From an uncultured Ruminococcus sp. (GTDB taxonomy: Bacteria > Bacillota > Clostridia > Oscillospirales > CAG-272), in contig CAZUPI010000010.1 of assembly GCA_964621755.1 (NCBI GenBank), forward strand, positions 4,714 to 68,713: 64,000 bases of DNA, read 5' to 3'. The notes under the pieces were generated by a model that was not told the DNA's origin, searched no databases, and worked only from the letters and a program-made list of their open reading frames with translations. The position numbers and the translations under genes are program-made. Every line of letters begins with the position of its first letter. Position 1 is the first letter of the stretch. Shown one piece after another: positions 13,797 to 63,733 of the stretch.

Positions 13797-13871
<75 letters not shown>

Positions 13872-13894: not shown

Positions 13895-13980
13895 TGCCGG
13901 ACACCGGGTTCGAACCGGTACGTAACTTTCGTTACACGGGATTTTAAGTCCCGGGCGTCTGCCAATTCCGCCACTCCGGC
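13895..13980 (-). tRNA. tRNA-Leu (anticodon TAA), class II with long variable arm
   Basis: The minus strand reads GCCGGAGTGGCGGAATTGGCAGACGCCCGGGACTTAAAATCCCGTGTAACGAAAGTTACGTACCGGTTCGAACCCGGTGTCCGGCA. The anticodon loop is CTTAAAA and the variable stem is GTAAC/GTTAC. There is one apparent G-G mismatch at position 7-66. Confidence 0.85.
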
Positions 13981-27545: not shown

Positions 27546-27950
27546 ATTTGCCTCCGTTTAAACGTTAAACTATAGCCGCCTTAACGGCTACATGAACTCA
27601 GCCTTACTATTGTATCATACAGCCGTAAAAATTGCAATACCTATTTTAAATTTTTCTGAATTTTTCTGAATTTTTGACTGTCATTCTTTCTTTTATAATG
27701 TGAGCCGACAGAAAGAGGCTTTTCGGAAAATCGGAACCTGCAGCAAGTCTCAGTTTCCGAAAAATCATCGAACTCACGTTCCTTTAACATCTATTATAAC
27801 AAAATATTCCACCGTTTTTTCAGAATAATAATGTAAATTTTATAAAAAACTATTGAAATTAAAGCGAAAATATATTAAAATAAATTTCATCATTTCTTAT
27901 TTTTATATATGAAGTCCAGAAATCATAAAATACCGGAGGTTTTTCCATTG

Positions 27951-37434: not shown

Positions 37435-37466
37435 CGGGGAAAACTTTTTTCAAAAAGTTTTCCCCG
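37435..37466. repeat. GGGG-AAAACTTTTT-TC-AAAAAGTTTT-CCCC palindromic element 16 nt after the aminotransferase stop
   Basis: CGGGGAAAACTTTTT-tc-AAAAAGTTTTCCCCG: perfect 15-bp arms. Confidence 0.85.
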
Positions 37467-47885: not shown

Positions 47886-47961
47886 ACTTCTTTATTTTAC
47901 ACCCAAACATTCGCCTAATGTTTAATAAATTGTAAATAACACACGTTTTTTGGAGAAAAAG

Positions 47962-47994
47962 CGGGGGGACACTTTTTTGGAAAAAAGTGCCCCG
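47962..47994. repeat. GGGG-CACTTTTTT-GG-AAAAAAGTG-CCCC palindromic element 45 nt after the glycosidase stop (one bulge)
   Basis: GGGGaCACTTTTTT-gg-AAAAAAGTGCCCCG. Confidence 0.75.
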
Positions 47995-48038
47995 AGTCCT
48001 CTTTTGTTGAAAGGTTTTTGCGGAGGGGTGCGTCGAAC

Positions 48039-50285: not shown

Positions 50286-50438
50286 GAGTATATCCTCTCG
50301 TTCTTTTAGTCGTAAATAAATGGGAAACGCTTCTTGAAAAAGGTTCCTTCAAATCTTTTATCATAATTATATATAATTATATATCACACGGCACGGTATT
50401 GCAAGCATCGGTATAAAATTTCAAAAAAACAAAATAAA

Positions 50439-50510
50439 CAGGTACCTTATGGGTTGACAATCCTTACTTTATATGATATAATATCCCCAGAAAAAAAGTC
50501 AGGTACCTGA
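50439..50510 (+). promoter_or_regulatory. marR promoter (exact TTGACA-N17-TATAAT, 50454-50482) flanked by two AGGTACCT palindromes (candidate operators)
   Basis: CAGGTACCTT at 50439-50448 and the perfect 12-bp palindrome TCAGGTACCTGA at 50499-50510. Their centres are ~61 bp apart and they bracket the promoter. Confidence 0.7.
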
Positions 50511-50532
50511 TTAATTTAATGGAGAAACTATA

Positions 50533-51006
50533 ATGAAAACACTTGATGAAGAAATTCTCCGGATGTTAGGAATGCTCAACGCCTTGTCACGGCGCGGACC
50601 CAATCCACCGCCACCGCCGCCACCGCCGCATGAAGACGGAGACCATCCGCCGTTCGGAGATAGACCACAGCCAAGAGGTCAAGGACGCGGCAGATTGATG
50701 GGTTTTTTAAACGACCACGGGGAAATGAGCCAATCCCAGATTGCCGCACACCTCAACATTCGTCCGCAGTCCTTATCGGAGCTTCTTACAAAAATGGAAA
50801 ACGATGGCCTAATTGTGCGCCGTCAGTCAGATGAGGACCGCCGTCAAACTCTCGTTTTCCTCACCGATATGGGTCGGTCCCGAGTGGAAGAATTCCGTGA
50901 GGAGCACCGCCGCCGCGCAGCAGAATTTCTGGAACCGCTGACGGAGGAAGAAAAAAACAGCCTTGCCCAAATCCTGCGCAAATTGATCGAGGCAAAAAAG
51001 ACATAG
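50533..51006 (+). CDS. MarR-family transcriptional regulator with a proline-rich N-terminal insert
   Basis: 157 aa. The winged-helix block is SQSQIAAHLNIRPQSLSELLTKMENDGLIVRRQSDEDRRQ. It is preceded by PNPPPPPPPPHEDGDHPPFGDRPQPRGQGRG. Confidence 0.85.
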   Translation: MKTLDEEILRMLGMLNALSRRGPNPPPPPPPPHEDGDHPPFGDRPQPRGQGRGRLMGFLNDHGEMSQSQIAAHLNIRPQSLSELLTKMENDGLIVRRQSDEDRRQTLVFLTDMGRSRVEEFREEHRRRAAEFLEPLTEEEKNSLAQILRKLIEAKKT

Positions 51007-51117
51007 AGGAATCATGATTTGCCCTAATTTATTATTTCATCCAGTATAAATTTAAAAAAGGGATTGGGGAAAGCTTTTTTCCAAAACCTCATTCCCGTCA
51101 ATTAGGAGGTATATGTT

Positions 51118-53361
51118 ATGGGACCTGGGGGACCTGGCGGTCAGTTTATGGGCCGTCGTGAAAAGATGATAGAGCAGCTCAAGGAGCCAAAGCCGAAATC
51201 CATAAAGGAAGTGCCTGACTATCTCTATCGCCTTGTCACAAAATTTTTCTATCGACTATTTTACATTTTCCGCCTTGTGTGGGAGACCAGACCGTGGATT
51301 CTCTTTTTCATGATTTTCATGGCCATTTTCAATGGTGTTACTCCCGTTATCAGCGCAAAAATCTCCGCAGAGCTTCTTAACGCGCTCGCATCCGCTTTCG
51401 TCGCCGCGACTACAGGCGCGGAGAGTGGATTCGACCGTGTTATGAGCCTACTTATCCTGCGGTTTGCCTATAACTTCATTACCGGATTGGTGGACCGCGT
51501 CAGCAATATCCTTAACAACATCGCAAGCGAGCTTGTGGTCAACCACGTCAACTTGAAAATTATGAGCAAAGCGCGCGAAATCGACCTCGCCAGCTTCGAC
51601 CTTCCCGAATTTTATGAGAAATTCGAGAATGCCAAGCGGGAAGCCGGCAACCGCCCGATTAATATCCTGAACGCAAACTTCACCATTATCAGTACTTTGA
51701 TCAGCATGTTCTCGTTCATCATAGTACTCATCGGCGTCAGCCCGTTCGCACCGCTTATCATCATCGCAATGAGTATCCCGACGGCTGTCATCAACTTCAG
51801 CTACCGCAAAAAGAATTTCCGGTACATACGCTTCCATTCCAAGGAACGCCGTCAAATGAGCTACTACTCTGACCTTATGACCAACAAGGATATGGTCAAA
51901 GAAATCCGTCTGTTCAACCTCTCCGAACTCTTTATCGGACGGTATCGGGAAACTTTCGCAAAGTACTTCAAGGGCTTGAAAAAGCTGTTCGTCGATGAAG
52001 GTATCCTTCACATCTGTACGACCGTTATCACAACGGCAATCAACTGTGCGCTGTTCTTGTTTATCGCCAAAGGTGTATGCGAAGGACGGTATGAAGTTGG
52101 TGATTACTCGTTCTATACCGGTGCGCTCAGTTCCATTTCAAACGGTATCGGCACACTGATATCGACTACCGCGTCAATTTACGAAGGAACTTTGTTCATT
52201 GATAACCTCATTTCCTTCATGAACGAAAAAACGACCATCGTCCCTCTCCTCGCAGAGCCCCGCAAAATCACACACCATACAGGGCATACCATCGTTTTCG
52301 ATGACGTGTCGTTCATCTATCCCGGAACCGAGCGCCGCGTCATCAATCATGTAAGCTTCACCCTTGAACCTGGCGATACATGCGTGCTTGTCGGTCTGAA
52401 CGGCGCGGGCAAAACCACACTTATCAAGCTTCTCACGCGTCTCTACGACCCAACAGAAGGACGAATCCTGCTCGATGGCCACGACATCAAGGAATATGCG
52501 GTTGAGGACCTGTACTCTATGTTCGGCATCATCTTCCAGGACTTCGGCAAATATGCGGTAAGCGTCAAAGAAAACATCAAGTTCGGGCAGCTTGAACGGG
52601 AGGCGACCGATGAGGATATCGTCGTCGCCGCCGAACAGTCGTCTGCGGATAAGTTTATCAACGACTTACCAGATAAGTATGATACGCCGCTGATGCGTTA
52701 CTTCGAGGAAAACGGTATTGAGCTGTCCATCGGTCAGTGGCAGAAGCTGTCGATTGCACGCGCATTCTACAGCGACTCCGACGTTATTATCCTTGACGAG
52801 CCGACAGCCAGCCTTGACGCCATCGCAGAGCAGGAAATTTACAATCAATTTGACCGCCTGCGCAAGGATAAGACCTGTATTTTCGTATCTCACAGACTCT
52901 CCAGCGCGACAGTAGCGAACAAAATCATCGTGCTCGAACACGGCGAAGTCGTTGAAATCGGCAATCACTCTGAACTGATGAAGAAGCACGGCGTATACTA
53001 TGAACTGTTCTCCACGCAGGCAAAGAGATACATCACCCCGATTGACGGCATGTCCGCGGAAGATTTCATGAATACAGGCGAGCCAGCCATGAAACTCGCG
53101 GATTCGGCCGCAAGAGAATCTACAGGGGAACATTTCAACGGTTCACACACATTTGACGGTAGGCCACCGTTTGAAGGTAGACCATCGTTCGACGGTAAGC
53201 CGCCATTTGATAAACAGCCTCCTTTCAACGGACGTCCTCCCTTCAACGGCAAATCTCCGCGGAATGGGGAAAGACCGCCGGAAGGACCGCAGCAAGAGGA
53301 ACGTCCTCGTGAAAAGGGGCCGGAATACGCAGGTCCGGAGCATGCGGAAGATAAAAGATGA
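51118..53361 (+). CDS. ABC exporter, fused permease/ATPase, with a hexapeptide-repeat C-terminal tail
   Basis: 747 aa with six TM helices, Walker A (GLNGAGKTT), the signature LSIGQWQK, Walker B (IILDEPT) and a ~110-aa tail containing G[RK]PPF[DEN] repeats. Confidence 0.9.
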   Translation: MGPGGPGGQFMGRREKMIEQLKEPKPKSIKEVPDYLYRLVTKFFYRLFYIFRLVWETRPWILFFMIFMAIFNGVTPVISAKISAELLNALASAFVAATTGAESGFDRVMSLLILRFAYNFITGLVDRVSNILNNIASELVVNHVNLKIMSKAREIDLASFDLPEFYEKFENAKREAGNRPINILNANFTIISTLISMFSFIIVLIGVSPFAPLIIIAMSIPTAVINFSYRKKNFRYIRFHSKERRQMSYYSDLMTNKDMVKEIRLFNLSELFIGRYRETFAKYFKGLKKLFVDEGILHICTTVITTAINCALFLFIAKGVCEGRYEVGDYSFYTGALSSISNGIGTLISTTASIYEGTLFIDNLISFMNEKTTIVPLLAEPRKITHHTGHTIVFDDVSFIYPGTERRVINHVSFTLEPGDTCVLVGLNGAGKTTLIKLLTRLYDPTEGRILLDGHDIKEYAVEDLYSMFGIIFQDFGKYAVSVKENIKFGQLEREATDEDIVVAAEQSSADKFINDLPDKYDTPLMRYFEENGIELSIGQWQKLSIARAFYSDSDVIILDEPTASLDAIAEQEIYNQFDRLRKDKTCIFVSHRLSSATVANKIIVLEHGEVVEIGNHSELMKKHGVYYELFSTQAKRYITPIDGMSAEDFMNTGEPAMKLADSAARESTGEHFNGSHTFDGRPPFEGRPSFDGKPPFDKQPPFNGRPPFNGKSPRNGERPPEGPQQEERPREKGPEYAGPEHAEDKR

Positions 53362-53516
53362 TAATAAAAAGGTGTATATATCCTTTTTCCATGTTTATTC
53401 CTGTACTGCGTTTCGTGAAAGACTTAATTATGGTGGGTGAACAAACGAACGCCTTTGGGTGAGGTACGTAAAACGTATGGCATAAATTATTTACAACTCA
53501 CCGAAAATATGGTATA

Positions 53517-54317
53517 ATGCCGTCAGATAAGAAAACGGGGGAGTTGGTGCATGGGTGCATGAAAATATGTAGATACAAAATCGGCTGCAGCGGAGGCAAA
53601 GCTCCGGTCGGACTGAAAATCGTAGTTGCGGCAGACCTGCATTCCCGCAACGGAAAGAAAGCGCTATGCCAGATTGCAGAGTTGGAACCAGACATGATTT
53701 GCGCTCCAGGCGATATCATGCTCAAAACCGATCTTTATTCCGTACGCGAGCCCTTTAATGAGAAGGGTATGACCTTTCTCAAAGAATGCCGCAAAATCGC
53801 GCCGGTATACTATTCGCCCGGCAACCACGAGCGCGGCATGACGGAGGAAAACCGCAAGATTCTCGCCGACTGCGGCATCACCTTCCTCGATGACGAATAC
53901 GTCAGATACCATTCCATTAAAATCGGCGGCCTGTCGTCAGGATACAAAGAAAATGTCCCAAAGCAAAAGCATACGCCGGCCCCCGACGTTTCGTTTATCC
54001 ATCGTTTTGCCTCTCTTGATGGATTTAAGCTGCTGCTGTGCCATCATCCGGAGTATTGGCGAAAATACCTCAGCGAAACCACAATTGACCTGACCCTCTC
54101 CGGTCACGCGCATGGTGGACAGTGGCAGATACCGTTTGTTCATCAGGGGATTTTCGCACCTGGACAGGGGCTTTTTCCAAAGTATACCGGCGGCGTACAT
54201 GAAAACGAGTCTAACTCGTGCACGCTTGTAATAAGCCGCGGTATGGCAAACACGTTGTGTATACCGAGATTTTTCAATCCGCGCGAGATTGTGTTTCTTG
54301 AGCTGGCACTGAAATGA
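53517..54317 (+). CDS. metallophosphoesterase (calcineurin-like)
   Basis: Motifs VVAADLH, PGDI, GNHE and SGHAHGGQ. The start is uncertain (53517, 53547 or 53559). Confidence 0.8.
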   Translation: MPSDKKTGELVHGCMKICRYKIGCSGGKAPVGLKIVVAADLHSRNGKKALCQIAELEPDMICAPGDIMLKTDLYSVREPFNEKGMTFLKECRKIAPVYYSPGNHERGMTEENRKILADCGITFLDDEYVRYHSIKIGGLSSGYKENVPKQKHTPAPDVSFIHRFASLDGFKLLLCHHPEYWRKYLSETTIDLTLSGHAHGGQWQIPFVHQGIFAPGQGLFPKYTGGVHENESNSCTLVISRGMANTLCIPRFFNPREIVFLELALK

Positions 54318-54868
54318 CAAGTATTGCTATATATTATACCCATATCGAATCCATATCCCGTGAGCTGTCCCATCAGCTTCGAATTCGTGTCGCGTCAGAC
54401 TACACCGGCGAATCCCCCGACGTATTTACGGATGGATTCGGTCTCCACGGCAAACCGTACTTCAAATCACATCCCGACGTGCATTTTTCGGTATCCCACA
54501 GCGACGGCGTCTGGATATGTGCGTTTGCGGACAGTGAAATCGGCTGTGATGTGCAGGAATACCGCACAGACGACACCCCGTCTCGCCTTGACAAAATAGC
54601 AAGACGTTGGTTTTCCGCTGCGGAGTACCGCTATTTTACGGGTCAGGGCAGCGGGGCAGATGAATTTTGCCGGATATGGTCGCGCAAAGAGGCATACGTA
54701 AAATACACCGGAAATGGAATCGGCGATGGTTTTCGACAATTCTCCTCTCTTGAGACCATTGGCAAATGCAGAATTTACGATTTTGTCCTGCCGTCAGCGG
54801 AAAGCTACGCGGCTGCCTTGGCGGGAGAATTTGATGCAGAACCTCAAAAAAATTTGATTAAATTTTAA
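54314..54868 (+). CDS. 4'-phosphopantetheinyl transferase (Sfp-type)
   Basis: 184 aa with GKPYF, FSVSHSDG, IGCDVQ and WSRKEAYVKYTG motifs. The ATG overlaps the upstream stop (ATGA). Confidence 0.8.
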   Translation: MTSIAIYYTHIESISRELSHQLRIRVASDYTGESPDVFTDGFGLHGKPYFKSHPDVHFSVSHSDGVWICAFADSEIGCDVQEYRTDDTPSRLDKIARRWFSAAEYRYFTGQGSGADEFCRIWSRKEAYVKYTGNGIGDGFRQFSSLETIGKCRIYDFVLPSAESYAAALAGEFDAEPQKNLIKF

Positions 54869-54894
54869 TACAAATACCACCCAGGAGGAAACAC

Positions 54895-56745
54895 ATGATT
54901 ACCGACTATCGAAATGTAAAGCTGCGGGGCGGCTTCTGGAAAGCGAAGGAGGACCTTAACCGCAACGTCACCATTCATGCAGTGTACGACCGTTTTAAGG
55001 AATCGGGGCGTATCGACGCGTTCAAATGTGAATGGAAGCCCGGCGACCCGAACCAGCCGCATATTTTCTGGGATTCCGATGTAGCAAAATGGATAGAGGG
55101 CGCCGCGTATATCCTGAAACAGGAAGAAAATGCCGACCTTCAGGAAAAAATCGAAGCCATCATCGATGAAATCGAGAAAAATCAAGGGGAAGATGGATAT
55201 TTCAACATCTTCTATACCGTTGTCCAGCCGGATAAGCGCTTCACCAGCCGCGATTGTCACGAGCTGTACTGCGCCGGTCACCTCATGGAAGCCGCGTGCG
55301 CGTACTACGAGGCGACAGGCCGCGACCGCTTCCTCAAGCTGATGGAAAAATACGCGGATTACATCGCGAAGGTATTCATGGTTGAGGACTCCGCAAGCTT
55401 TGTCACGCCGGGGCACGAGGAAATCGAGCTGGCGCTGTACCGCATGTACCGCACGACAGGGGAGGAGCGCTTCTTGAAACTATGCGCGTTTTTCCTCAAC
55501 AGCCGCGGTGAGCGGAATGAAAAAGATGGGCCCATTTTCGGCAACGTAAAATATGCGCAGAACCACCTTCCGGTGCGCAAGCAGTTTGAGGCGTTTGGTC
55601 ATTCGGTGCGCGCGACGTACCTTTACTCCGGTATGGCCGACCTTGCAAAGGAGACGAACGATGAGGAACTGGCGAAGGCGTGCTATGCCTTGTTCGATGA
55701 CATCACGACCAAGAAAATGTACGTCACAGGAGGCATTGGCTCGACGCACCTTGGCGAGGCCTTCACCATCCCGTACGACCTGCCCAACGACCACGCATAC
55801 ACGGAAACCTGCGCGTCGATTGGTATGATATTCTTCGCGAACCGCATGTTCAAGCTGGACGCGGCGCGTACCGGAAGACCGTCGTCGAAATACGCGGACA
55901 TTGTCGAGCTTGAGCTGTACAACGGTGCGCTGTCCGGGCTTTCTCTCGACGGTGAGTCATTCTTCTACGAAAATCCGCTTGAGATAAACCTTTCCGACCG
56001 CAAAAAGATAACCGCTACAAACGACCGAGAGCATTTCCCAATAACACAGCGCGTCCGGATTTTCGGCTGCTCCTGCTGCCCTCCGAACCTGAGCCGTCTG
56101 TTGTCGTCTCTCGGCACCTATTTCTACGGCTATGACGAAAAGACCGGCGCGGTTTACATCAACCAGTTCGGCGACAGCGAATTTGAGTATGCCGGCGCGC
56201 ACGTTTCGCAAAAAACGGGCTACCCGAATGACGGTCATATTGCGATTGTTACGGATGTTCCGGTATACGTGCGTGTCCCGGGATGGTGCCGCAGATTCAT
56301 GGCGACAAAGAAATACGAAATGGTAAACGGTTACGCGAAATTCGAAGCGGGCGAAATCGACGTCGAGTTCAACATGACGCAGGTGATGCTCACTTCCTCT
56401 GTAAACGTACATAAAAATCTCGGCAAAGCCGCAGTCAGACGAGGTCCCGTGATATACTGTGCGGAAGCGGTCGATAACGACGGCGACGTCCACACCCTGT
56501 ACCTCGACCGCCGTACTCTGAACGACGGCGTAGCAGTCCTGAACGAAAAATATGGATGCCCGACCATCACCCTCTCCGGCTTCCGCCGCATCGACCCACC
56601 GGACCGCGACGTTACCCCATTGTACGCTCCCCTCGACAACATCATCGGCGAAACCTTCCGTCCTGCCCAAATCAGCATGATACCCTACTATGCCTTTGCC
56701 AACCGCGGAGAGACAAACATGCTGGTGTTCTTAAATTATAGATGA
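54895..56745 (+). CDS. glycoside hydrolase family 127 (beta-L-arabinofuranosidase/DUF1680-like)
   Basis: 616 aa with FWDSDVAKWIEGAAY, GHEEIELAL and CSCCPPN blocks characteristic of GH127. There is an AGGAGG RBS. Confidence 0.85.
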   Translation: MITDYRNVKLRGGFWKAKEDLNRNVTIHAVYDRFKESGRIDAFKCEWKPGDPNQPHIFWDSDVAKWIEGAAYILKQEENADLQEKIEAIIDEIEKNQGEDGYFNIFYTVVQPDKRFTSRDCHELYCAGHLMEAACAYYEATGRDRFLKLMEKYADYIAKVFMVEDSASFVTPGHEEIELALYRMYRTTGEERFLKLCAFFLNSRGERNEKDGPIFGNVKYAQNHLPVRKQFEAFGHSVRATYLYSGMADLAKETNDEELAKACYALFDDITTKKMYVTGGIGSTHLGEAFTIPYDLPNDHAYTETCASIGMIFFANRMFKLDAARTGRPSSKYADIVELELYNGALSGLSLDGESFFYENPLEINLSDRKKITATNDREHFPITQRVRIFGCSCCPPNLSRLLSSLGTYFYGYDEKTGAVYINQFGDSEFEYAGAHVSQKTGYPNDGHIAIVTDVPVYVRVPGWCRRFMATKKYEMVNGYAKFEAGEIDVEFNMTQVMLTSSVNVHKNLGKAAVRRGPVIYCAEAVDNDGDVHTLYLDRRTLNDGVAVLNEKYGCPTITLSGFRRIDPPDRDVTPLYAPLDNIIGETFRPAQISMIPYYAFANRGETNMLVFLNYR

Positions 56746-56780
56746 TAACCCCCTCAAAACTTTTTAAACGATAAAATTAG

Positions 56781-56840
56781 ATATGGTGCGGCTGAAAGGC
56801 AGTGTTTGCGAATACTGTTCTGTCAGCCGCACCATATTTT
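56781..56840 (+). terminator. long-stem terminator after the GH127 gene
   Basis: ATATGGTGCGGCTGA-N27-TCAGCCGCACCATAT followed by TTTT: a 15-bp perfect stem. Confidence 0.6.
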
Positions 56841-56870
56841 ATCCCCAGTCTAAAAGTTTTTAAAGGGGTT

Positions 56871-56904
56871 TTATGGGGGACTTTTTTCAAAAAGTTCCCC
56901 ATAA
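56871..56904. repeat. GGGG-GACTTTTTT-C-AAAAAGTTC-CCC palindromic element 17 nt from the CNNM gene stop
   Basis: TTATGGGGGACTTTTT-tc-AAAAAGTTCCCCATAA, with one G-T position. Confidence 0.8.
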
Positions 56905-56920
56905 CGTTATCCCAACTAAA

Positions 56921-58273
56921 TTATTGCTGCACTTCCTCTTCTTCCTCTTCGGGAGATTCTATTTTTTCGCGTTTTACGGTCATCTTGGCAATTCGATGTT
57001 CCTTGATTTCTGTAACGTGGATGTGCAGGTTTTCTATTTCGATGTCGAATTCTGTGCCGTCCTCTGGGACGACGCCGTAGTTTGCAAAGACGTAGCCGCC
57101 CATTGTGTCGTATTTTTCAGTCGGCAGTTCTATGTCAAGCTCCTCCGCAACATCGTTGAGCGGCGCCACACCGCGGATTGTCCATGTGTCTTCTTCGCCA
57201 TTGAGCTTTACGATATCCGGTTCTTCCAGCTCACTTTCGTCGTTGTCGGTCAGGTCGCCGACAAGCTGTTCGAGCAGGTCATTAATTGTCACGATACCGC
57301 GCAATCCGCCGTATTCGTCGAGTACTACTGCGAAGTGGTTCTTGCTGTTCTTCATCTGCTTGAATAAGACGTCTGCGTGAATTCCTTCGGGTACGAAGTA
57401 CGCCGGGCGGACCGCTTCCTTCAGTATCTGTTCGCGTGACGCGTCGCGCAGTCGGAAGTAATCCTTAATAACGAGTACGCCAACTACGTTGTCGATGGAG
57501 TCATCACAAACGGGGTACATGGAGTGCCGTGTTTCGTGGATGGTATTTTCCCACGTTTTATCGTCATCCTCAAGCCACAGAACGGATACGTCTGTACGGT
57601 GTGTTGCAAATTCTCCGACGGTCAGGTCGTCGAACTCAAACACGTTTTGGATAAGCTCCTGTTCCTGCTCGTCGATAACGCCCTTCTGACTGCCTTCGTC
57701 AACCATCAGACGGATTTCTTCCTCGCTGACCTCCTCATCGTTTTCATTGGGGTCGATACCGAAAAGTCTGAGAACAAGGTTGGTCGACACGGACAGAAGC
57801 CATACAATAGGAGTGAATATTTTGGATACACCGTAAAGCATGGGTGCCATGCCAAGCGCCATCTGCTCGCTTTTTCTCATCGCGATACGCTTCGGTACAA
57901 GCTCACCGAGAACGAGCGTAAAATACGAGAGAATCAAGGTAACGACAATGATTGCGATAGATTGAAGCGTCTCGCGCTTCACCGTTACGCCAAGGGAAAT
58001 CACAACGTCCACAAGGCGGGTGGCGAAATTATCGGACGCGAACGCACTTCCGAGAAAACCGGAGAGTGTAATGGCAATCTGAATTGTGGAGAGGAATTTT
58101 GCCGGCTGTTCGATTAGCTTGCGCAGCTTTTTCGCGTTGCGGTTGCCGGATTCCTCTAATTTTGTAATCTTTGCTTCATTGACAGATATCACCGCGATTT
58201 CCGCACACGCGAACACGGCGTTCAGAAAAATAAGTATAAACTGGAGAAGAAGCTGTCCCCAAATTGAGCCCAT
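56921..58273 (-). CDS. CNNM/CorC-family transporter (DUF21 + CBS pair + CorC_HlyC; annotated in databases as hemolysin-family protein)
   Basis: 450 aa with four N-terminal TM helices, a CBS-pair region, a C-terminal CorC_HlyC-like domain and an acidic tail. The RBS is CGGAGGA. Confidence 0.88.
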   Translation of the reverse strand: MGSIWGQLLLQFILIFLNAVFACAEIAVISVNEAKITKLEESGNRNAKKLRKLIEQPAKFLSTIQIAITLSGFLGSAFASDNFATRLVDVVISLGVTVKRETLQSIAIIVVTLILSYFTLVLGELVPKRIAMRKSEQMALGMAPMLYGVSKIFTPIVWLLSVSTNLVLRLFGIDPNENDEEVSEEEIRLMVDEGSQKGVIDEQEQELIQNVFEFDDLTVGEFATHRTDVSVLWLEDDDKTWENTIHETRHSMYPVCDDSIDNVVGVLVIKDYFRLRDASREQILKEAVRPAYFVPEGIHADVLFKQMKNSKNHFAVVLDEYGGLRGIVTINDLLEQLVGDLTDNDESELEEPDIVKLNGEEDTWTIRGVAPLNDVAEELDIELPTEKYDTMGGYVFANYGVVPEDGTEFDIEIENLHIHVTEIKEHRIAKMTVKREKIESPEEEEEEVQQ

Positions 58274-58576
58274 TCTATTTAATCCTCCGAATTATGTTTG
58301 GCAAAAAGTGACTGGCATGTAGAAAAACTTATTAACAAAGCTCTTCTGCGCCTGTCTCACATTTACGTAAATTACAATCTGACGATGGATTAAATATCAG
58401 GTCAGAAATCGGCGAAAATGCAAAAAGGCATACCTGTACCCTACAAAAGAGCGCAGCAATGCCTTGGAATAGCATGAATCGCAGATATCATATTTCGTTG
58501 TAGTGCAGTAGCATCGGTTATCGTCCGTACTGTCGCCGCTGTCCATGATGGCATGTTCCTCCATTTTCAATCTAAT
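58274..58576 (-). promoter_or_regulatory. ~300-nt 5' leader of the CNNM gene containing a terminator-like hairpin and a small ORF
   Basis: The leader runs from the exact consensus promoter at 58583-58611 to the start codon at 58273. The hairpin GGCATTGCTG/CAGGTATGCC plus TTTTTGCATTTT lies at 58415-58463. A 49/55-codon Cys-containing ORF (58397-58564) reads through it. Confidence 0.5.
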
Positions 58577-58582
58577 TGCGGT

Positions 58583-58611
58583 CATTATATCACATGTTCG
58601 GACTTTTGTCA
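58583..58611 (-). promoter_or_regulatory. exact TTGACA-N17-TATAAT promoter (TGn extended)
   Basis: The minus strand reads TTGACAaaagtccgaacatgtgaTATAAT. Confidence 0.8.
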
Positions 58612-58711
58612 AGAGAAAAAAAGACTTTCGCCGCAAGAGAGCCGCTTTACGCAAAAAATCTCTGTATCTCAAAAAAATCTCTGTATCTCATAGAGATGCA
58701 GCGGACAAACT

Positions 58712-59509
58712 TCAGTGCAACCGGGACCTGTCGCTCTCCGTCAATCCCATTGCATTTTGCCGGTAGATCAGGGGGCTCACACCAACGAATTTGCGGAAAT
58801 TCCGATAAAAATAGCTGGTATTGTGAAAGCCTGCCGCAACTGCGATTTCTGATATCGGCATGTCCGTTTTTTCCAAATACATTCGCGCTATGCTGACGCG
58901 TTTTCGCAGGATATATTCTATTGGACGTATCCCAGTGCTCTGCTTGAACAGGCGGCATAAGTACTGCTCCGACAAGCCCCCCGCTGCTTCGCAAAGTTGG
59001 TTGAGCATAATGTCGTGGGTGTAGTTTTGGTCAATATATGCGAGGATGCTCTCCATTATGCGGTTTCCGGAAACCGTATATTCCGGCATCTGCTTCAGAT
59101 GACCGTTCAAACGGATGAGCATATTGTACAGCATTGCGGAAGCGCGGTAACTGCCGTATTTTCCGCCGCAGGATACGCATTCGTACAATTCATGCAGAGT
59201 CTCCTTATATCCATTGGCGCCGCCGCTTTTGATGACACAGTGGTCTCGGTTGAGAAATAAGGTATTGGCACAGGCAGGCACGCCGAAGTCGAATGTCAGC
59301 CAACTGATGACCCAGTTGCTGCGCGGTTGATAATGGCACTCGACTCCCTCGCGCAGGTACAACACATACTCCGAAGTGAGGTCATATGTCTTATCGCCTA
59401 TCGTGACCGTTCCACTCCCGCCAGAGGTAAATATCAACTGAAAGTTCTTTGCGTCTTGGTGAGCTATGGACTCTTGCGGATAGTCGATGCCGATTCCGCA
59501 GACATACAT
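58712..59509 (-). CDS. AraC-family transcriptional regulator (cupin sensor + HTH)
   Basis: 265 aa. The C-terminal AraC HTH pair is ...LNQLCEAAGGLSEQYLCRLFKQSTG... and ...ISEIAVAAGFHNTSYFYRNFRKFVGVSP. Confidence 0.9.
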   Translation of the reverse strand: MYVCGIGIDYPQESIAHQDAKNFQLIFTSGGSGTVTIGDKTYDLTSEYVLYLREGVECHYQPRSNWVISWLTFDFGVPACANTLFLNRDHCVIKSGGANGYKETLHELYECVSCGGKYGSYRASAMLYNMLIRLNGHLKQMPEYTVSGNRIMESILAYIDQNYTHDIMLNQLCEAAGGLSEQYLCRLFKQSTGIRPIEYILRKRVSIARMYLEKTDMPISEIAVAAGFHNTSYFYRNFRKFVGVSPLIYRQNAMGLTESDRSRLH

Positions 59510-59902
59510 CGGAAGCTGTTCTTCCTTTTTTATGTCCGGATAGGAAACAAGAAGCGTCCGCCGTCCCTCCCTTTGATAACATTGTGATATGATGCAAATA
59601 TAAATTCATTTATATTTTCAAAATTATTTTAAATAAAGAATGAGAATACATATATGGATATATGTTAAATTTCTGTTAAAACCACCTTTTTTATTCCGAA
59701 AATGACACATTTCGGGCAGAATATTGCAGTATGTGCGAAATTCTGTATCTTTTTTATCTTTAAGCCAATTTTGCGAAATTTAGTTATAGATACTAACTAT
59801 ATGCAATATTTTCCAAAAAAAAGAATGATATATTCTTTATTACATGTTTCCAACCCTGTACAAAAAGAAATCCTGCTGCTGTGAAATAATATACAGAACT
59901 TA

Positions 59903-59931
59903 TTGACATAGTATTGAAAACATGCTATAAT
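59903..59931 (+). promoter_or_regulatory. exact TTGACA-N17-TATAAT promoter (TGn extended) of the TerB/ATPase cassette
   Basis: TTGACAtagtattgaaaacatgcTATAAT, 80 nt upstream of ATG 60012. Confidence 0.8.
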
Positions 59932-60011
59932 TATTTATTACGAACTAATGTTTGCCCGATGGGAAAATCGTATTTGCATCTGTCAGCAAGACATGATTAC
60001 GAGGTATTGCA

Positions 60012-62246
60012 ATGGAAAAAAATAAGAAAAAAGGCGAGCAGCTTGCGAATCTCAAGGATACAATCAGGCAAAGCGTAGAGCAATCCATAAGAAACAAATT
60101 TCGAGGTGAACCTCAAATAAAACCACATGAGAAGCAGGACGGCCTTACAGTGTCGTTCGAAGTCAACGCGCCGTCCCCACGCAGACAAGTGGCGCATGAG
60201 ACAAACCGTCCGACGCCAGACAATGGTGACAGCTTCTGGAATCTTGGAAAGCCAAAGCCTCGCGTATACAAAAAGCCGGACTTTGCCGGGGCACCGGTGG
60301 AGATGACCGATGTTGCAGATACGGTTGAGGTGGAGTACGACGTTCCCGCACCAGAGAAAATCGCCGGACGCGCACAGCCGTCAGGAGAAATCGTGAAAAA
60401 AGATATTTATGCCAAGCTAAAATACCGACCAGCAGACAATACCGACCCTTTCGACGATATTTTTGGGGACATATCGGCTGAGACAGAAAGAAAAGCGCCT
60501 TCAGAGAAGAAAATGTCGACGGCAACCAGCGACGGCAGGCAGACAGTCGTCCACGACGTGCCGCGGTATCAGACCGGATCGTACAAACGGCAAGGAGGCT
60601 TTCATCCACAGAAGAAGGACAAGCAAAAGGCAGAAGCCTCTGGTAATCCACAAAAGCGGCGCGTGGTGGATGAAGTCCTCGCAACGTATAAGCCGGAAGG
60701 TTTGCTGATTCGCGAGATTGAGGTGAAAAGCTGGTCGTCAGATATAGATTTTTACGAACGCTTCATGGAAAACGCGGTAAGCAGTCACAGAGCGCAATCG
60801 TCTGTACCGTATATGTCGGACTATCCGAAGGTCAAGTATTTCTCTTATGTGCCGCAATACTCGCACATGAGCCGGACACAGCTTGATTTTTATCGCTGGG
60901 TACGCGAAAACATTCGTCACGAACGATATCCGGACTGCGATTCGTCGTACATTCAACTGTATATATATGAAATTTTGAATCTGTCGGATTTGATTCCACC
61001 GGAATACGGCGCCGCGCAGCTTGCCGGAATGTGGCTGGCGTATCGTAAAGCAGAGCCGCGGTTAGACGGGTATCTCTGTGAATGGCTTCCGGACTATTGC
61101 ATGATTCACGCGTGTCCGATGCCGGAGATGGTCAAGACCATCCTTCCGGAAATCGTACCGAAGGCGCAATTCAAGGAATTCTTCCTTGACGTCAATCCGG
61201 CGTCGGCTGCGGATGCAGACTACCTGATGCTGGCGAAAACGTTGCTTGAAACTTCATCTGATTACGACTACCGCCGCAGCCGTTACTACCATGATAACCG
61301 TGACGCGTATGAAAAACACATACACCACGCGATAGCGGACGTCGTAAAGGGGCTGCTTGCGGCGAAGCTCGGTATCTTTTCGCTGGAGAAAACCTATAAA
61401 ATGGCGCGCGACAGCTATTGCGGCGCGATTGTATCAGTTGATGCAAAAAGGCGGATGAACATCGAGTTTTGCTCTTTCACACGTTCTGCTGACACCAGGG
61501 CGACCGTGACTGCCCTCGTGAAATATGCGGAAAATAAGCTGCGTGCGTCGCTTGGAATCAAGGCAAAGCTGGGCGTCGACAAACTGACTGAGGACGAAAC
61601 CGCGATAATTGACGCGTACTTTGCGCCGATGCTGCCGGTCAAGCAGGTGAAGTCAAAGGAAGACCAGTATATGCCAGACGATTATTTGAAGAACTACGAA
61701 TCGGAGGATTCCGGCTTTGACTTTGGCACAGCAGCGGAAATCGAGCGGCAGTCGTGGCGGAACACGACCTTGCTTACGGGGGGAGAATTCGACTCCGAGC
61801 AAGGGGAACCCTACAGACAGTATGAAAACTCTACACCTGTTGAATCCACCGCAGTGTCGGCTGAACAAGAGCAACATTTGGATGCCGCACTGCAGATGGA
61901 GAAAGCCGAGCCCATGTCCGATAGCGAACCGATGGAAGAAATTGAAGGCGAAATATCATCGGACCTTCTGGGTGAGATGTTAGAGGTTGCAGTGGATGAA
62001 CCTGCTGTGCAGGCCAAAAGCGACGAAGAGGATGAATTCATCCGCAACGCGCTCTTACAGGCCCTGTCCGGAAGATTTCATGAGTATTGCAGGGAGAACG
62101 GAATTTACGACGGCGTACTTGCCGACCGAATCAATACCATGTTTCTCGATATCATCGGGGACGTGGTACTGGAGGAATCGGGCAGCAGCTACACGATAAT
62201 TGAAGATTACAGGGAGGATATTGAACAATGGACGGACAGCAGGTAA
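60012..62246 (+). CDS. TerB_N / TerB_C domain protein with a long disordered N-terminus (SngA-like)
   Basis: 744 aa. About 230 low-complexity charged residues come first. Next is KVKYFSYVPQYSHMSRTQLDFYRWVRENIRHERYPDCDSSYIQLYIYEILN (TerB N-terminal domain signature). An acidic linker follows, then a C-terminal ADRINTMFLDIIGDVVLEE...YTIIEDYRED block (TerB-C-like). Confidence 0.7.
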   Translation: MEKNKKKGEQLANLKDTIRQSVEQSIRNKFRGEPQIKPHEKQDGLTVSFEVNAPSPRRQVAHETNRPTPDNGDSFWNLGKPKPRVYKKPDFAGAPVEMTDVADTVEVEYDVPAPEKIAGRAQPSGEIVKKDIYAKLKYRPADNTDPFDDIFGDISAETERKAPSEKKMSTATSDGRQTVVHDVPRYQTGSYKRQGGFHPQKKDKQKAEASGNPQKRRVVDEVLATYKPEGLLIREIEVKSWSSDIDFYERFMENAVSSHRAQSSVPYMSDYPKVKYFSYVPQYSHMSRTQLDFYRWVRENIRHERYPDCDSSYIQLYIYEILNLSDLIPPEYGAAQLAGMWLAYRKAEPRLDGYLCEWLPDYCMIHACPMPEMVKTILPEIVPKAQFKEFFLDVNPASAADADYLMLAKTLLETSSDYDYRRSRYYHDNRDAYEKHIHHAIADVVKGLLAAKLGIFSLEKTYKMARDSYCGAIVSVDAKRRMNIEFCSFTRSADTRATVTALVKYAENKLRASLGIKAKLGVDKLTEDETAIIDAYFAPMLPVKQVKSKEDQYMPDDYLKNYESEDSGFDFGTAAEIERQSWRNTTLLTGGEFDSEQGEPYRQYENSTPVESTAVSAEQEQHLDAALQMEKAEPMSDSEPMEEIEGEISSDLLGEMLEVAVDEPAVQAKSDEEDEFIRNALLQALSGRFHEYCRENGIYDGVLADRINTMFLDIIGDVVLEESGSSYTIIEDYREDIEQWTDSR

Positions 62247-63607
62247 GCAAAACAGGCGCAACCGCAAAGGTGCCCAGACGAATCCTTGGCACGCTGCTCT
62301 CGTCGCTGTCGGCGGGTGTTGTGCCGCGTGCGGGCGCACCGTACATTGCGATTGGCAGAAATGATGAAATTGAGTCGCTTGTGACCTCGCTCGACCGGGT
62401 TTCAGATGGGGAAGGCGCGACGAAATTCATCATCGGCAGATACGGGTCGGGCAAGAGCTTTTTAATACAGCTTTCCCGCGGGTATGCGCTCGACCGGGGA
62501 TTCATCACCGCGGACGCTGACCTGTCCCCTGAGCGGAAGCTGTCTGGTTCCGGCGGCTGCGGACTTGCGACGTACCGTGAACTGATGAAGAACATTGCAT
62601 GCAAGTCGTCACCGGACGGCGGGGCACTTCCTGTGATTCTTGGAAAATGGTTTACGAATATTGGAGAGGGACTTGTAGATGAGGGCATGTCCGCCGGAAG
62701 TGAGGAGTACAACGCGGAGTTTGGGCGGCGAATCATGAAGAACCTGCGGGAGCTTGAATCAGATGTAGGCGGATTTGATTTCGCAACGGTACTGCGGGAA
62801 TACTATAACGCATGGCAGAACGACGACGATATGAAGCAGTCGGCGTGTCTGAAGTGGCTGCGCGGGGAGTATACCACGCGTACGGAAGCGAGACAGGCGG
62901 TTGGAATAAAATCGCTTTCGATAATCAACGACGATAACTGGTATGATTATTTGAAGCTGCTGACGGCGTTTGCGCGCCTGGCAGGATACAGCGGGCTTTG
63001 CATTTTTATTGACGAGTGCGTGAACTTATATAAGATACCGAACAGGATTTCACGTGAGAACAACTATGAGAAGATTCTCGCCATGTTCAACGATACTATG
63101 CAAGGTCGTGCGCCGGGCCTGATGATAGTGTTCGGCGGAACGCCGCAGTTCTTGGAGGACAGCCGACGCGGGCTGTTCAGCTACGAGGCGCTTCGCAGCC
63201 GTTTAGCGGACGGACGGTTTGGGGGCGGCGAACTGAAGAGCCTCATGCAGCCGGTCATCCGTCTTCGCAGGCTGTCAGACAGCGAACTGTACGCCTTGGT
63301 TATCCGTCTTGCGGCGCTGCACGGAGAATATCACAAGTGGAATGTACGCATTACTGAAGAAGACATGCGCACTTTTCTGATGTCGTCGCTTGAACGCACA
63401 GGGGCGGACACTATGATAACCCCGCGTGAAATTATTCGCGACTTTGTCACTCTCCTCGACCTTCTCTACACCAACTCAGATAAGTCATTCGCGGACGTTG
63501 TCGGTACCGTCCAGCGCTCCACTGTCTCTTCGACTATCGACGAGGCATCCCCAACCACAGAGGACAGTACCCGCGCGAAGGTCACTCTTGATGATATTGA
63601 GTTTTGA
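62228..63607 (+). CDS. P-loop ATPase of the DUF2791 / BrxD-like family (SngB-like)
   Basis: 459 aa. The N-terminal block is SLSAGVVPRAGAPYIAIGRNDEIESL. Walker A is GRYGSGKS and Walker B is LCIFIDEC. It overlaps the upstream gene by 19 nt. Confidence 0.7.
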   Translation: MDGQQVSKTGATAKVPRRILGTLLSSLSAGVVPRAGAPYIAIGRNDEIESLVTSLDRVSDGEGATKFIIGRYGSGKSFLIQLSRGYALDRGFITADADLSPERKLSGSGGCGLATYRELMKNIACKSSPDGGALPVILGKWFTNIGEGLVDEGMSAGSEEYNAEFGRRIMKNLRELESDVGGFDFATVLREYYNAWQNDDDMKQSACLKWLRGEYTTRTEARQAVGIKSLSIINDDNWYDYLKLLTAFARLAGYSGLCIFIDECVNLYKIPNRISRENNYEKILAMFNDTMQGRAPGLMIVFGGTPQFLEDSRRGLFSYEALRSRLADGRFGGGELKSLMQPVIRLRRLSDSELYALVIRLAALHGEYHKWNVRITEEDMRTFLMSSLERTGADTMITPREIIRDFVTLLDLLYTNSDKSFADVVGTVQRSTVSSTIDEASPTTEDSTRAKVTLDDIEF

Positions 63608-63675
63608 GAAGGTCTGCCCCTCTAAACCTAAAAAAATTATTGGGTACGACAAAGTTCAGAAATCCTCGAATTGAG

Positions 63676-63727
63676 AAACTCCTCCGCGAATTCACGTATA
63701 TTTTTGCGTGAACTCGCGAAGGAGTTT
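63676..63727. terminator. 21-bp hairpin between the convergent ATPase and HAD genes
   Basis: AAACTCCTCCGCGAATTCACG-N10-CGTGAACTCGCGAAGGAGTTT, with 2 mismatches. Confidence 0.65.
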
Positions 63728-63733
63728 TACGTT

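What the first reader, a model, noticed from the sequence alone, without database searches (positions are those of the whole stretch)
59903..63727. Self-contained TerB_N/TerB_C + DUF2791 (BrxD-like) ATPase cassette: Shango-like module without an adjacent helicase
This is a tight two-gene unit. It has its own exact consensus promoter (59903-59931), a 19-nt gene overlap (62228-62246) and a closing 21-bp hairpin (63676-63727).
- **Gene 1 (744 aa):** It has a ~230-aa disordered charged N-terminus, the TerB N-terminal signature (FSYVPQYSHMSRTQLDFYRWVRENI...YIQLYIYEILN), an acidic linker and a TerB-C-like end.
- **Gene 2 (459 aa):** It has the N-terminal AGVVPR...IAIGRNDEI block, Walker A GRYGSGKS and Walker B IFIDEC, which I associate with the DUF2791/BrxD ATPase family.
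- **Prior knowledge:** Comparative genomics of Ter systems predicted TerB-N/C + this ATPase + an SF2 helicase as a DNA-sensing or DNA-processing module. A three-gene TerB/ATPase/helicase system has been reported as the anti-phage system Shango (SngABC).
- **What differs here:** The flanks are an AraC regulator and a HAD phosphatase, with no helicase. Rule-based defence finders requiring all three genes would not call it.
- **Open question:** It may be a minimal two-component variant, or it may borrow the Lhr-like helicase at 45654-47885. Either way its mechanism is unknown.
Basis: partly seen in the sequence, partly recalled or inferred. Interest (0 to 1): 0.7.

Follow-up and report, generated by a model that had tools for sequence, protein, structure and literature searches.

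The report
Shango defence operon split by inversion
The two-gene TerB/ATPase cassette is real, but it is two-thirds of an ordinary three-gene Shango anti-phage system whose helicase gene now sits 12 kb away because a 15.7-kb stretch of chromosome was flipped in this lineage.

Summary
PADLOC models name the pair SngA (147 bits) and SngB (532 bits).

The "missing" helicase is not missing. The "Lhr-like" ORF at 45654-47885(-) is a full-length SngC (797 bits, E 4e-240).

In 9 of the 13 closest related genomes the order is sngA-sngB-sngC-uvrA on one strand, and a tenth contig ends inside sngC. In the other three the contig ends at or just after sngB. In those relatives the 748-aa glycosidase-like gene abuts the HAD gene.

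One in-place inversion of about 47.95-63.65 kb, from that glycosidase-like gene to sngB, converts that layout exactly into the window's. One breakpoint lies within a few nucleotides of the sngB stop codon.

All three ORFs are intact, and sngC kept a conserved ~55-nt upstream element.

This is therefore a canonical Shango gene set with a rearranged locus, which rule-based finders would probably miss. It is not a minimal two-gene variant.

A side observation is more interesting. A sister clade of at least 13 species carries intact sngAB under purifying selection with no helicase within 10 kb.

Shango's mechanism remains unknown. The SngA core model matches no solved fold.

The parts
59903..59931 (+). 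PsngA promoter: TTGACA, 17-nt spacer with TG, TATAAT
   Evidence: 12/12 consensus match. Hexamers and TG are invariant in L001-L005, L008 and L013 while the spacer varies.
60012..62246 (+). sngA, 744 aa. Disordered charged N-terminus (1-230), TerB_N (272-368), helical core, acidic disordered linker (about 561-680), TerB_C (679-738).
   Evidence: Pfam. PADLOC SngA 147.5 bits over residues 172-741. AlphaFold model of residues 231-744 has mean pLDDT 83.5, with the linker below 50.
62228..63607 (+). sngB, 459 aa, BrxC/BrxD-family (DUF2791) P-loop ATPase. Walker A GRYGSGKS at 70-77, Walker B IFIDEC at 259-264. Overlaps sngA by 19 nt.
   Evidence: Pfam PF10923 496 bits. PADLOC SngB 532 bits against BrxD 168. 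NCBIfam BrxD below cut-off. Motif positions.
63676..63727 (.). 21-bp-stem hairpin that could terminate both sngB(+) and the HAD gene(-). It lies 7 nt from the HAD stop and 69 nt from the sngB stop, inside the right breakpoint interval.
   Evidence: -33 kcal/mol, z = -7.1. A T-run follows on the + strand.
45654..47885 (-). sngC, SF2 DEAD/DEAH (Lhr/MrfA-like) helicase. The ORF starts at 47885, but the likely true start is the ATG at 47858. Motifs: I GKT, II DEIH, III SAT, VI QRLGRSGRR.
   Evidence: PADLOC SngC 797.5 bits, E 3.8e-240, full length. Pfam DEAD and Helicase_C. 80-93% identical to the helicase directly downstream of sngB in L002-L013. Homology and profile match begin at M10. Nearest solved structures are YprA/MrfA 6znp and Lhr 5v9x.
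47894..47949 (-). Conserved element upstream of sngC (AAAACG..TTTACAATTTnnTAAACA..CGAA..GTGTAAAAT). In relatives it begins right after the sngB stop codon. Here it moved with sngC.
   Evidence: Alignments A1 and A2. Shared by the window, L127, L002-L004 and L129. No consensus sigma-70 match.
47950..47964 (.). Left inversion junction, between the glycosidase-like gene's own terminator and the sngC upstream element.
   Evidence: Sequence, terminator at 47993-47966(-), end of homology to relatives.
63608..63733 (.). Right inversion junction interval, from the sngB stop to the HAD stop. It has no homology to relatives' sngB-sngC spacer.
   Evidence: Alignment A1, blastn.
47955..63650 (.). Inverted segment of about 15.7 kb: GH-like 748 aa(-), MarR, ABC transporter, metallophosphoesterase, PPTase, GH127, CNNM/CorC(-), AraC(-), sngA, sngB.
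   Evidence: Synteny with L004/L083 (one contig), L082, L096 and L081. Pfam annotation.
42749..45583 (-). uvrA (944 aa from the ATG at 45583), 70 nt downstream of sngC. This is the conserved downstream neighbour of the Shango operon in this clade.
   Evidence: Pfam UvrA_inter, UvrA_DNA-bind and ABC_tran. Synteny.

Best explanation
The cassette is the sngA-sngB part of a canonical three-gene Shango (SngABC) system. Its third gene, sngC, is intact at 45654-47885 on the opposite strand.

Shown:
- The ancestral layout, kept in the closest related species, is HAD(+) / GH-like748(-) MarR ABC MPE PPTase GH127 CorC(-) AraC(-) sngA sngB sngC uvrA.
- In this lineage the segment from GH-like748 to sngB (about 15.7 kb) was inverted in place.
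- That cut the operon within a few nucleotides of the sngB stop codon.
- sngC was left next to uvrA with its conserved upstream element.

Inferred:
- sngAB is transcribed from the strong conserved promoter at 59903 and is translationally coupled through the 19-nt overlap.
- sngC must now be transcribed separately. Candidates are the conserved element, which is not a consensus promoter, or read-through of the GH-like gene's terminator.
- Because the proteins are diffusible, the system probably still works in trans.

Mechanism (inferred from domain content and the published Shango phenotype):
- SngA is a TerB_N/TerB_C scaffold or sensor with long disordered charged regions.
- SngA and the SngB P-loop ATPase form a sensing and loading complex.
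- That complex recruits or licenses the Lhr/MrfA-like SngC helicase-translocase onto invading phage DNA, blocking its replication.
- No nuclease or other effector domain is detectable.
For: Family assignment:
- PADLOC SngA 147.5 bits, SngB 532 bits and SngC 797.5 bits.
- Pfam TerB_N, TerB_C, BrxC_BrxD, DEAD and Helicase_C.

Ancestral contiguity:
- L002-L009, L012 and L013 (SngB 74-87% identical) have sngA-sngB-sngC on one strand, followed by uvrA in all but L009, whose contig ends inside sngC. SngC there is 80-93% identical to the window's helicase.
- 52 of 68 informative SngB loci have SngC in the same locus.
- 52 of 59 SngC loci with at least 2 kb of upstream sequence have SngB upstream.

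Inversion:
- blastn shows collinearity on both flanks with the orientation flipped exactly at sngB|sngC.
- The predicted second junction, GH-like748 converging on HAD, is present in L081, L082, L083 and L096. L083 is the same contig as L004, so the whole ancestral order is seen on one 86.8-kb contig.
- The conserved element that follows the sngB stop in relatives lies upstream of sngC in the window.

Possible substrate: in the closest relative MAG, a 144-nt dispersed repeat (89% identical copies) occupies both sites. The copies would be in opposite orientation if that MAG keeps the ancestral gene order.

Integrity: all three ORFs are full length against profiles and relatives, and the catalytic motifs are present.

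Function of the family: three-gene TerB/ATPase/DEAD-helicase Shango reduces plating 10-100-fold in P. aeruginosa and about 10-fold in E. coli (PMC10250203; bioRxiv 10.1101/2022.05.11.491447).
Against: - No read-level evidence is available, so the inversion rests on a single assembly.
- The window keeps no inverted repeats at the junctions. It has no full copy of the 144-nt repeat. The recombination route is therefore inferred from a relative.
- No consensus sigma-70 promoter lies within about 100 nt upstream of sngC, and a 12-bp-stem terminator sits just upstream. sngC expression after the split is therefore unproven.
- In this clade the locus is not in a recognisable mobile defence island. 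It occupies a conserved site beside uvrA among sugar-utilisation genes.
- Anti-phage activity has only been shown for proteobacterial Shango. Its mechanism is unknown (10.1101/2025.09.30.679545).
- The SngA core model matches no solved fold.
Confidence: 0.82

Rival explanations
1. Minimal two-component variant. SngAB acts on its own as a self-contained defence or stress module. The helicase at 45654-47885 is functionally unrelated and acts, for example, as a repair helicase working with uvrA.
For: sngAB has its own conserved promoter and a terminator-like hairpin. A sister clade of at least 13 species has intact sngAB with no helicase within about 10 kb. SngB there is under purifying selection, dN/dS about 0.05-0.15 with dS near saturation. 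SngC's nearest solved relatives are repair helicases, MrfA/YprA and Lhr. It is always next to uvrA in this clade.
Against: The helicase matches the SngC profile at 797 bits over its full length, against 104 bits to YprA. Its orthologues at 80-93% identity sit immediately downstream of sngB in the closest relatives. The split is explained by one recent inversion. Outside this clade SngC stays linked to sngAB but not to uvrA: 63 of 64 sampled uvrA loci lack it.
Confidence: 0.08
2. Decaying system. The inversion uncoupled sngC from the operon promoter and inactivated Shango. The intact ORFs only reflect how recent the event is.
For: In L002-L004 no terminator separates sngB from the element upstream of sngC, so sngC was probably co-transcribed from PsngA. 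In the window sngC lies behind a terminator with no consensus promoter. No other genome with this arrangement was found: the SngA cluster holds one member and the next relative is 69% identical.
Against: There are no frameshifts, truncations or motif losses in any of the three genes. In many relatives sngC is already separated from sngB by hairpin or repeat-rich spacers of up to about 1.6 kb, which suggests sngC can be expressed on its own. The conserved upstream element was retained.
Confidence: 0.07
3. Assembly artefact. The 15.7-kb segment is mis-oriented in the assembly and the real genome has a contiguous sngABC.
For: The sngB-sngC spacer is a recurrent assembly break in related MAGs: contigs end there in L001, L010, L127, L136, L137, L139, L142, L154, L157 and L186. 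In the closest relative both breakpoint sites carry copies of a repeat.
Against: The window has no repeat, N-run or long inverted repeat at either junction that could mislead an assembler. Both junctions are unique sequence. The left junction joins a complete terminator to the sngC upstream element cleanly.
Confidence: 0.05

Closest known systems
Shango (SngABC) anti-phage system (Millman et al. 2022; Johnson et al. 2023, P. aeruginosa PA14 cDHS1)
   Same: The same three protein families, each matching the PADLOC profile over nearly its full length: TerB_N/C protein, DUF2791 ATPase and DEAD/DEAH helicase. The closest relatives have the same A-B-C gene order.
   Different: The genes are split into sngAB(+) and sngC(-), 12.1 kb apart, by an inversion. 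The host is a gut Clostridia/Oscillospiraceae-type organism rather than a proteobacterium. The locus is a clade-conserved chromosomal site next to uvrA, not a mobile defence hotspot. SngA carries a clade-specific ~230-aa disordered N-terminal extension.
BREX BrxD ATPase and BrxHI Lhr-like helicase
   Same: SngB belongs to the same Pfam family as BrxC/BrxD (PF10923). SngC resembles BrxHI (406 bits).
   Different: SngB scores 167 bits against the 350-bit cut-off of the NCBIfam BrxD equivalog. SngB and SngC match the Shango profiles much better. No other BREX component was seen among the large ORFs scanned.
Lhr / MrfA (YprA) DNA-repair helicases
   Same: These are the nearest solved structures to the SngC helicase core (6znp 104 bits, 5v9x 101 bits). 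SngC is adjacent to a repair gene, uvrA.
   Different: Similarity is limited to the SF2 core (residues ~5-377). No MrfB-like exonuclease partner is present. The gene is linked to sngAB across dozens of species.
TerB-N/TerB-C + DUF2791 ATPase + SF2 helicase module predicted by Anantharaman, Iyer and Aravind 2012 (cited in the Shango papers)
   Same: The same three-component architecture. It was predicted to be a DNA-processing or sensing complex.
   Different: That prediction was computational. Here the classic TerB domain itself is not detected; only TerB_N and TerB_C hit at E <= 0.1.

Membership tests
Shango (SngABC) | SngA: protein with TerB_N and TerB_C domains that matches the SngA profile | tested here: met
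   Pfam TerB_N 39.5 bits and TerB_C 31.1 bits, both above cut-offs. PADLOC SngA 147.5 bits, profile positions 52-527 of 528.
Shango (SngABC) | SngB: DUF2791/BrxC_BrxD-family P-loop ATPase that matches the SngB profile, with intact Walker motifs | tested here: met
   PF10923 496 bits. PADLOC SngB 532 bits, profile positions 4-423 of 439. GRYGSGKS and IFIDEC present.
Shango (SngABC) | SngC: SF2 DEAD/DEAH helicase that matches the SngC profile | tested here: met
   ORF 45654-47885(-): PADLOC SngC 797.5 bits, profile positions 4-713 of 720. DEAD and Helicase_C. Motifs I, II, III and VI present.
Shango (SngABC) | The three genes are contiguous in one operon, as rule-based finders require | tested here: not met
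   sngB ends at 63607(+) and sngC starts at 47885/47858(-), with eight protein-coding genes between sngC and sngA. The feature is met in the closest relatives L002-L009, L012 and L013, so the failure is a secondary rearrangement. The finder rules themselves (maximum separation) are recalled from memory and were not run.
Shango (SngABC) | Location in a defence island or mobile hotspot | tested here: not met
   Neighbours are AraC, CNNM/CorC, GH127, an ABC transporter, uvrA and HAD. The same site is conserved across the species with UvrA >= 75% identity. A type I-C CRISPR-Cas system lies about 32 kb from sngC.
Shango (SngABC) | Confers protection against phage | not testable with these tools
   Shown only for the P. 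aeruginosa PA14 and E. coli systems (PMC10250203; 10.1101/2022.05.11.491447).
BREX (BrxD) | Score above the NCBIfam BREX_BrxD equivalog cut-off | tested here: not met
   166.6 bits against a cut-off of 350. PADLOC BrxD 168 bits against SngB 532 bits.
BREX (BrxD) | Co-occurrence with BrxA/B/C, PglX and PglZ | tested here: inconclusive
   No BREX core hits among the 12 large window ORFs scanned with PADLOC. Smaller ORFs were not all scanned.
Ter (tellurite-resistance) TerB proteins | Classic TerB domain | tested here: not met
   Only TerB_N and TerB_C were reported at E <= 0.1. No TerB-domain hit.
Lhr / MrfA repair helicases | Full-length similarity, including the C-terminal domains | tested here: not met
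   phmmer against PDB sequences matches only the SF2 core, residues ~5-377. Pfam at E <= 1e-5 reports only DEAD and Helicase_C.

The most novel reading that the evidence does not exclude
Shango is not an obligate cis-operon. sngAB and sngC would be separable units. The window would then be a natural trans configuration, and a sister clade of at least 13 Clostridia species keeps sngAB under purifying selection with no helicase within 10 kb. SngAB may therefore be an autonomous sensor/ATPase module that works with an unlinked helicase or with none.
Probability: 0.2. Interest if true: 0.55.

Novelty: new member of a known kind. Interest (0 to 1): 0.3.

Why it matters
Practical point: defence-system finders that require co-localised genes would probably miss this complete Shango set, or report an orphan pair. 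The split is a simple rearrangement, not a new architecture. The finder rules were recalled from memory and not run.

Biological point: the locus is a natural experiment on whether Shango tolerates uncoupling of its helicase. Together with the sister clade of sngAB-only loci, it gives a concrete way to ask which Shango components act together, for a system whose mechanism is still unknown.

The locus also shows Shango inherited vertically at a fixed chromosomal site beside uvrA in a gut Clostridia clade. That differs from the mobile hotspots where Shango was discovered.

Tried and rejected
- Inverted repeats at the two junctions in the window: none beyond chance. The relative's 144-nt repeat is absent from the window; only its hairpin head recurs, at 47965-47993 and 37437-37465.
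- GC and AT skew across 30-64 kb to date or confirm the inversion: dominated by coding-strand effects, uninformative.
- Rfam scan for a riboswitch or leader upstream of sngC or sngA: only two tRNAs elsewhere. The RNA fold of the GH748-sngC spacer is not exceptional apart from the terminator (z = -1.1).
- LexA/Cheo-box reading of the conserved element upstream of sngC-uvrA: rejected by eye. The half-sites are 3 nt apart rather than 4, and the CGAAC is not kept in the window.
- Sigma-70 promoter for sngC: no match of at least 9/12 in the ~100 nt upstream.
Only one in-clade locus was informative.
- Exact-sequence look-up of SngB in public assemblies: not on record.
- Sequence search of SngA and SngB against PDB: no hits.
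- Foldseek of the confident SngA model: no match at E <= 0.001. There were only weak local LysR-type winged-helix DNA-binding-domain matches of 65-81 aligned columns, probability at most 0.44.
- PADLOC 'mad3/mad8' hits to UvrA and the ABC transporter were judged to be generic ABC-ATPase similarity.

Full report
OBSERVATION.
- ORFs 60012-62246(+) (744 aa) and 62228-63607(+) (459 aa) overlap by 19 nt.
- A perfect TTGACA-17-TATAAT promoter with a TG extension lies at 59903-59931.
- The region 63675-63728 folds into a long hairpin: -33 kcal/mol, z = -7.1, and 0 of 200 shuffles fold as well.
- The promoter is not a chance match. The same 12/12 hexamers plus TG are present upstream of sngA in seven related species while the spacer sequence differs.
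- Pfam gives TerB_N (residues 272-368) and TerB_C (679-738) for gene 1, and BrxC_BrxD/PF10923 (496 bits) for gene 2.
- The quoted motifs are at the stated places. The N-terminal 230 residues and the 561-680 linker have the stated biased composition.
- The flanks are an AraC-family regulator and a HAD-like hydrolase.

WHAT THE TWO GENES ARE. PADLOC profiles identify gene 1 as SngA (147.5 bits, E 2.5e-43). They identify gene 2 as SngB (532 bits), well above BrxD (168 bits). NCBIfam's BrxD equivalog scores 167 bits against a cut-off of 350. The ATPase is therefore Shango-type and not a BREX BrxD.

THE HELICASE IS PRESENT. I scanned the ten largest other ORFs of the window.
- It has DEAD and Helicase_C domains and intact motifs I, II, III and VI.
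- Its nearest solved relatives are B. subtilis YprA/MrfA and mycobacterial Lhr, at only about 100 bits and over the SF2 core alone.
- All three Shango genes are therefore in the window, 12.1 kb apart on opposite strands.

HOW THEY CAME APART. Eighty SngB-encoding loci from species-representative genomes were retrieved. All are gut or rumen Clostridia/Oscillospiraceae-type MAGs.
- In ten of the 13 closest (L002-L009, L012, L013; SngB 74-87% identical) the order is sngA-sngB-sngC on one strand. uvrA follows in nine of them; in L009 the contig ends inside sngC. AraC(-) is detected upstream of sngA in five of the ten (L002-L004, L008, L013). The helicase is 80-93% identical to the window's. In the other three (L001, L010, L011) the contig ends at or just after sngB.
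- L004 also has GH127 and CorC(-) upstream, as in the window.
- blastn shows the window is collinear with these loci on both sides. The orientation flips exactly between sngB and sngC. Collinearity continues through uvrA, the 559-aa membrane protein and the radical-SAM gene.
- A single in-place inversion of the block from the 748-aa glycosidase-like gene to sngB predicts a second ancestral junction in relatives: that gene converging on the HAD gene.
- A scan for relatives of the 748-aa protein confirmed this in L081, L082, L083 and L096. Their order is CorC-GH127-PPTase-metallophosphoesterase-ABC-MarR | GH-like748 -> (an aminotransferase in three of them) <- HAD.
- L083 and L004 are the same 86.8-kb contig, so the complete ancestral order is seen on one molecule.
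- Contiguous sngABC is found in many clades, including outgroups. The window's arrangement is therefore the derived state.

BREAKPOINTS.
- In L002-L004 a conserved stretch (AAACGAACAATGTTTACAATTTCGTAAACAC..GCGAAC..GAGTGTAAAAT) begins directly after the sngB stop codon.
- In the window the same element lies at 47894-47949(-), immediately upstream of sngC.
- The cut therefore fell within a few nucleotides of the sngB stop.
- Upstream of the element sits the glycosidase-like gene's own terminator, 47993-47966(-), with a 12-bp stem.
- The right junction lies somewhere in 63608-63733.
- The 'closing hairpin' lies in that interval, 7 nt from the HAD stop, so its origin cannot be assigned.
- No inverted repeats remain at the junctions.

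A POSSIBLE ROUTE. In the closest relative (MAG PUUB45_bin.047; SngB 87%, SngC 93%) the sngB-sngC spacer and the GH748-HAD spacer each carry a copy of a 144-nt dispersed repeat.
- The two copies are 89% identical.
- They would be in opposite orientation if that MAG keeps the ancestral gene order; its contigs are not joined, so this is inferred from L083/L004.
- The repeat has at least five copies across the three contigs of that MAG.
- These are exactly the two sites that recombined in the window's lineage.
- The window has no full copy, so this route is a lead and not a demonstration.
- The same spacer is a recurrent contig break in related MAGs.

IS THE SPLIT SYSTEM LIKELY TO WORK? All three ORFs are full length with catalytic motifs intact.
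- sngAB keeps its strong conserved promoter and its translational coupling.
- sngC lost the operon promoter. It now sits behind a terminator with no consensus sigma-70 promoter within about 100 nt.
- sngC does retain the conserved upstream element.
- In many relatives sngC is already separated from sngB by hairpin-rich spacers of up to about 1.6 kb.
- I judge function in trans to be likely but unproven.

MECHANISM. Shango is a validated three-gene system. It gives a 10-100-fold EOP reduction in P. aeruginosa and about 10-fold in E. coli (PMC10250203; 10.1101/2022.05.11.491447). Its mechanism is unknown, and a 2025 preprint still calls the role of TerB proteins unclear (10.1101/2025.09.30.679545).
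- I modelled SngA residues 231-744 from a 43-sequence alignment. Mean pLDDT is 83.5, with a mostly helical core above 90 and a disordered acidic linker.
- Foldseek against the PDB found nothing at E <= 0.001. It found only weak local LysR-type winged-helix DNA-binding-domain matches of 65-81 aligned columns.
- SngA and SngB have no sequence relatives in the PDB.
- No effector domain is recognisable.
- The most defensible model, which is inference, has SngA-SngB acting as a sensor/ATPase pair that engages the SngC Lhr-like translocase on foreign DNA.

CONTEXT. Within the window's clade (UvrA at least about 75% identical), Shango sits at a fixed site between AraC and uvrA.
- SngC identity tracks UvrA identity: 93/91, 86/83, 80/80 and 77/76. 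This indicates vertical inheritance.
- Outside that clade uvrA is not linked to Shango. Of 64 sampled uvrA loci, 63 lack it. Some of those same MAGs carry Shango elsewhere.
- This is a housekeeping-type neighbourhood, not a mobile defence island. A type I-C CRISPR-Cas locus lies about 32 kb from sngC.

Of the 80 SngB loci:
- 52 have SngC in the same locus, mostly directly downstream;
- 16 have at least 3 kb of downstream sequence and no SngC;
- 12 are too short to tell.
Thirteen of the 16 form one clade, sister to the window's clade. In that clade sngB is followed by GH2 beta-galactosidases, a DUF2079 membrane protein, an LRR protein or unknowns. SngB there is under purifying selection, dN/dS about 0.05-0.15, with dS near saturation. 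I could not test whether those genomes carry sngC elsewhere.

VERDICT. This is a canonical Shango gene set whose operon was cut by a lineage-specific 15.7-kb inversion, not a helicase-less variant. It is a new member of a known kind with modest interest. Its main value is as a finder false negative and as a natural test of cis-linkage. The sngAB-only sister clade is the better lead.

Noticed in passing
L063, L071, L072, L075-L080, L048, L068, L070 (and L042, L051, L069, L074): Sixteen SngAB loci have no SngC within about 10 kb. Thirteen form one clade sister to the window's clade. sngA and sngB are intact there, and SngB has dN/dS of about 0.05-0.15 (dS near saturation). sngB is followed by GH2 beta-galactosidase, DUF2079 or LRR genes. 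This could be a stable helicase-unlinked form of Shango.
   Followed up: partly
L001:11424-11467, L127:1-124 and 2555-2695, L081:2516-2660, 5582-5698 and 42-122: A ~144-nt dispersed intergenic repeat occurs in the closest relative MAG (PUUB45_bin.047). It has a hairpin head (GCGGGGGAAACTT..AAGTTTCCCCCGC) and a conserved tail. Copies sit in the sngB-sngC, GH748-HAD and sngC-uvrA spacers. The first two sites are the window's inversion breakpoints.
   Followed up: partly
L127, L134, L136, L137, L139, L142, L154, L157, L186 (starts); L001, L010 (ends): Contigs of many related MAGs end inside the sngB-sngC spacer, 118-311 nt upstream of sngC or just after sngB. The spacers there are rich in hairpins and repeats. 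This could cause Shango to be under-called in fragmented assemblies.
   Followed up: partly
window 47894-47949(-); L002:6800-6860, L003:7075-7135, L004:11420-11480: A conserved ~55-nt element upstream of sngC contains the palindrome TGTTTAC-N6-GTAAACA and GTGTAAAAT. In L002-L004 it is followed by a hairpin plus T-run (AAGGCTAAT...ATTAGCCTTTT) just before the sngC ribosome-binding site, which looks like a leader or attenuator. The window lacks that hairpin. Function unknown.
   Followed up: partly
L076:5804-11341: In one sngAB-only genome a 774-aa GH2-like gene is inserted between sngA and sngB, so even the tight A-B coupling is broken there.
   Followed up: no
window 4790-5415 and 6011-13401(-): A type I-C CRISPR-Cas locus. 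The array has a 32-nt repeat, ATTTCAATCCACACTCCCGCGAGGGGAGTGAC, with about 10 repeats. PADLOC confirms Cas8c (8535-10304) and Cas3 (11008-13401). The other ORFs in 6011-11029 are probably the remaining cas genes but were not scanned.
   Followed up: partly
window 58612-58584(-) and 50454-50482(+): Two further perfect 12/12 TTGACA-17-TATAAT promoters with TG lie upstream of the CNNM/CorC gene and the MarR gene. This genome seems to use near-consensus promoters widely.
   Followed up: no
window 42749-45583(-) and 51118-53361(+): Housekeeping UvrA and an ABC exporter score 347 and 100 bits against PADLOC 'mad3'. This is generic ABC-ATPase similarity and a likely source of false defence hits.
   Followed up: partly
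window 60012-60701 (SngA residues 1-230): The disordered charged N-terminal extension of SngA is clade-specific. Close relatives cover 99-100% of the protein, while distant SngA homologues cover only about 69%. SngA evolves much faster than its partners: 60% identity where SngB is 86% and SngC 93%.
   Followed up: partly
L082:12357-13505, L083, L096: A 382-aa gene, read by eye as a PatB/MalY-type aminotransferase and not scanned against domain models, lies between the GH-like748 gene and HAD in three relatives. It is absent at the corresponding position in L081 and in the window's junctions.
   Followed up: no
window 27909-31166(+); 13797-13980(-): A 1085-aa CotH-kinase-domain protein with an atrophied Ig domain, and two adjacent tRNA genes next to cas3.
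   Followed up: no
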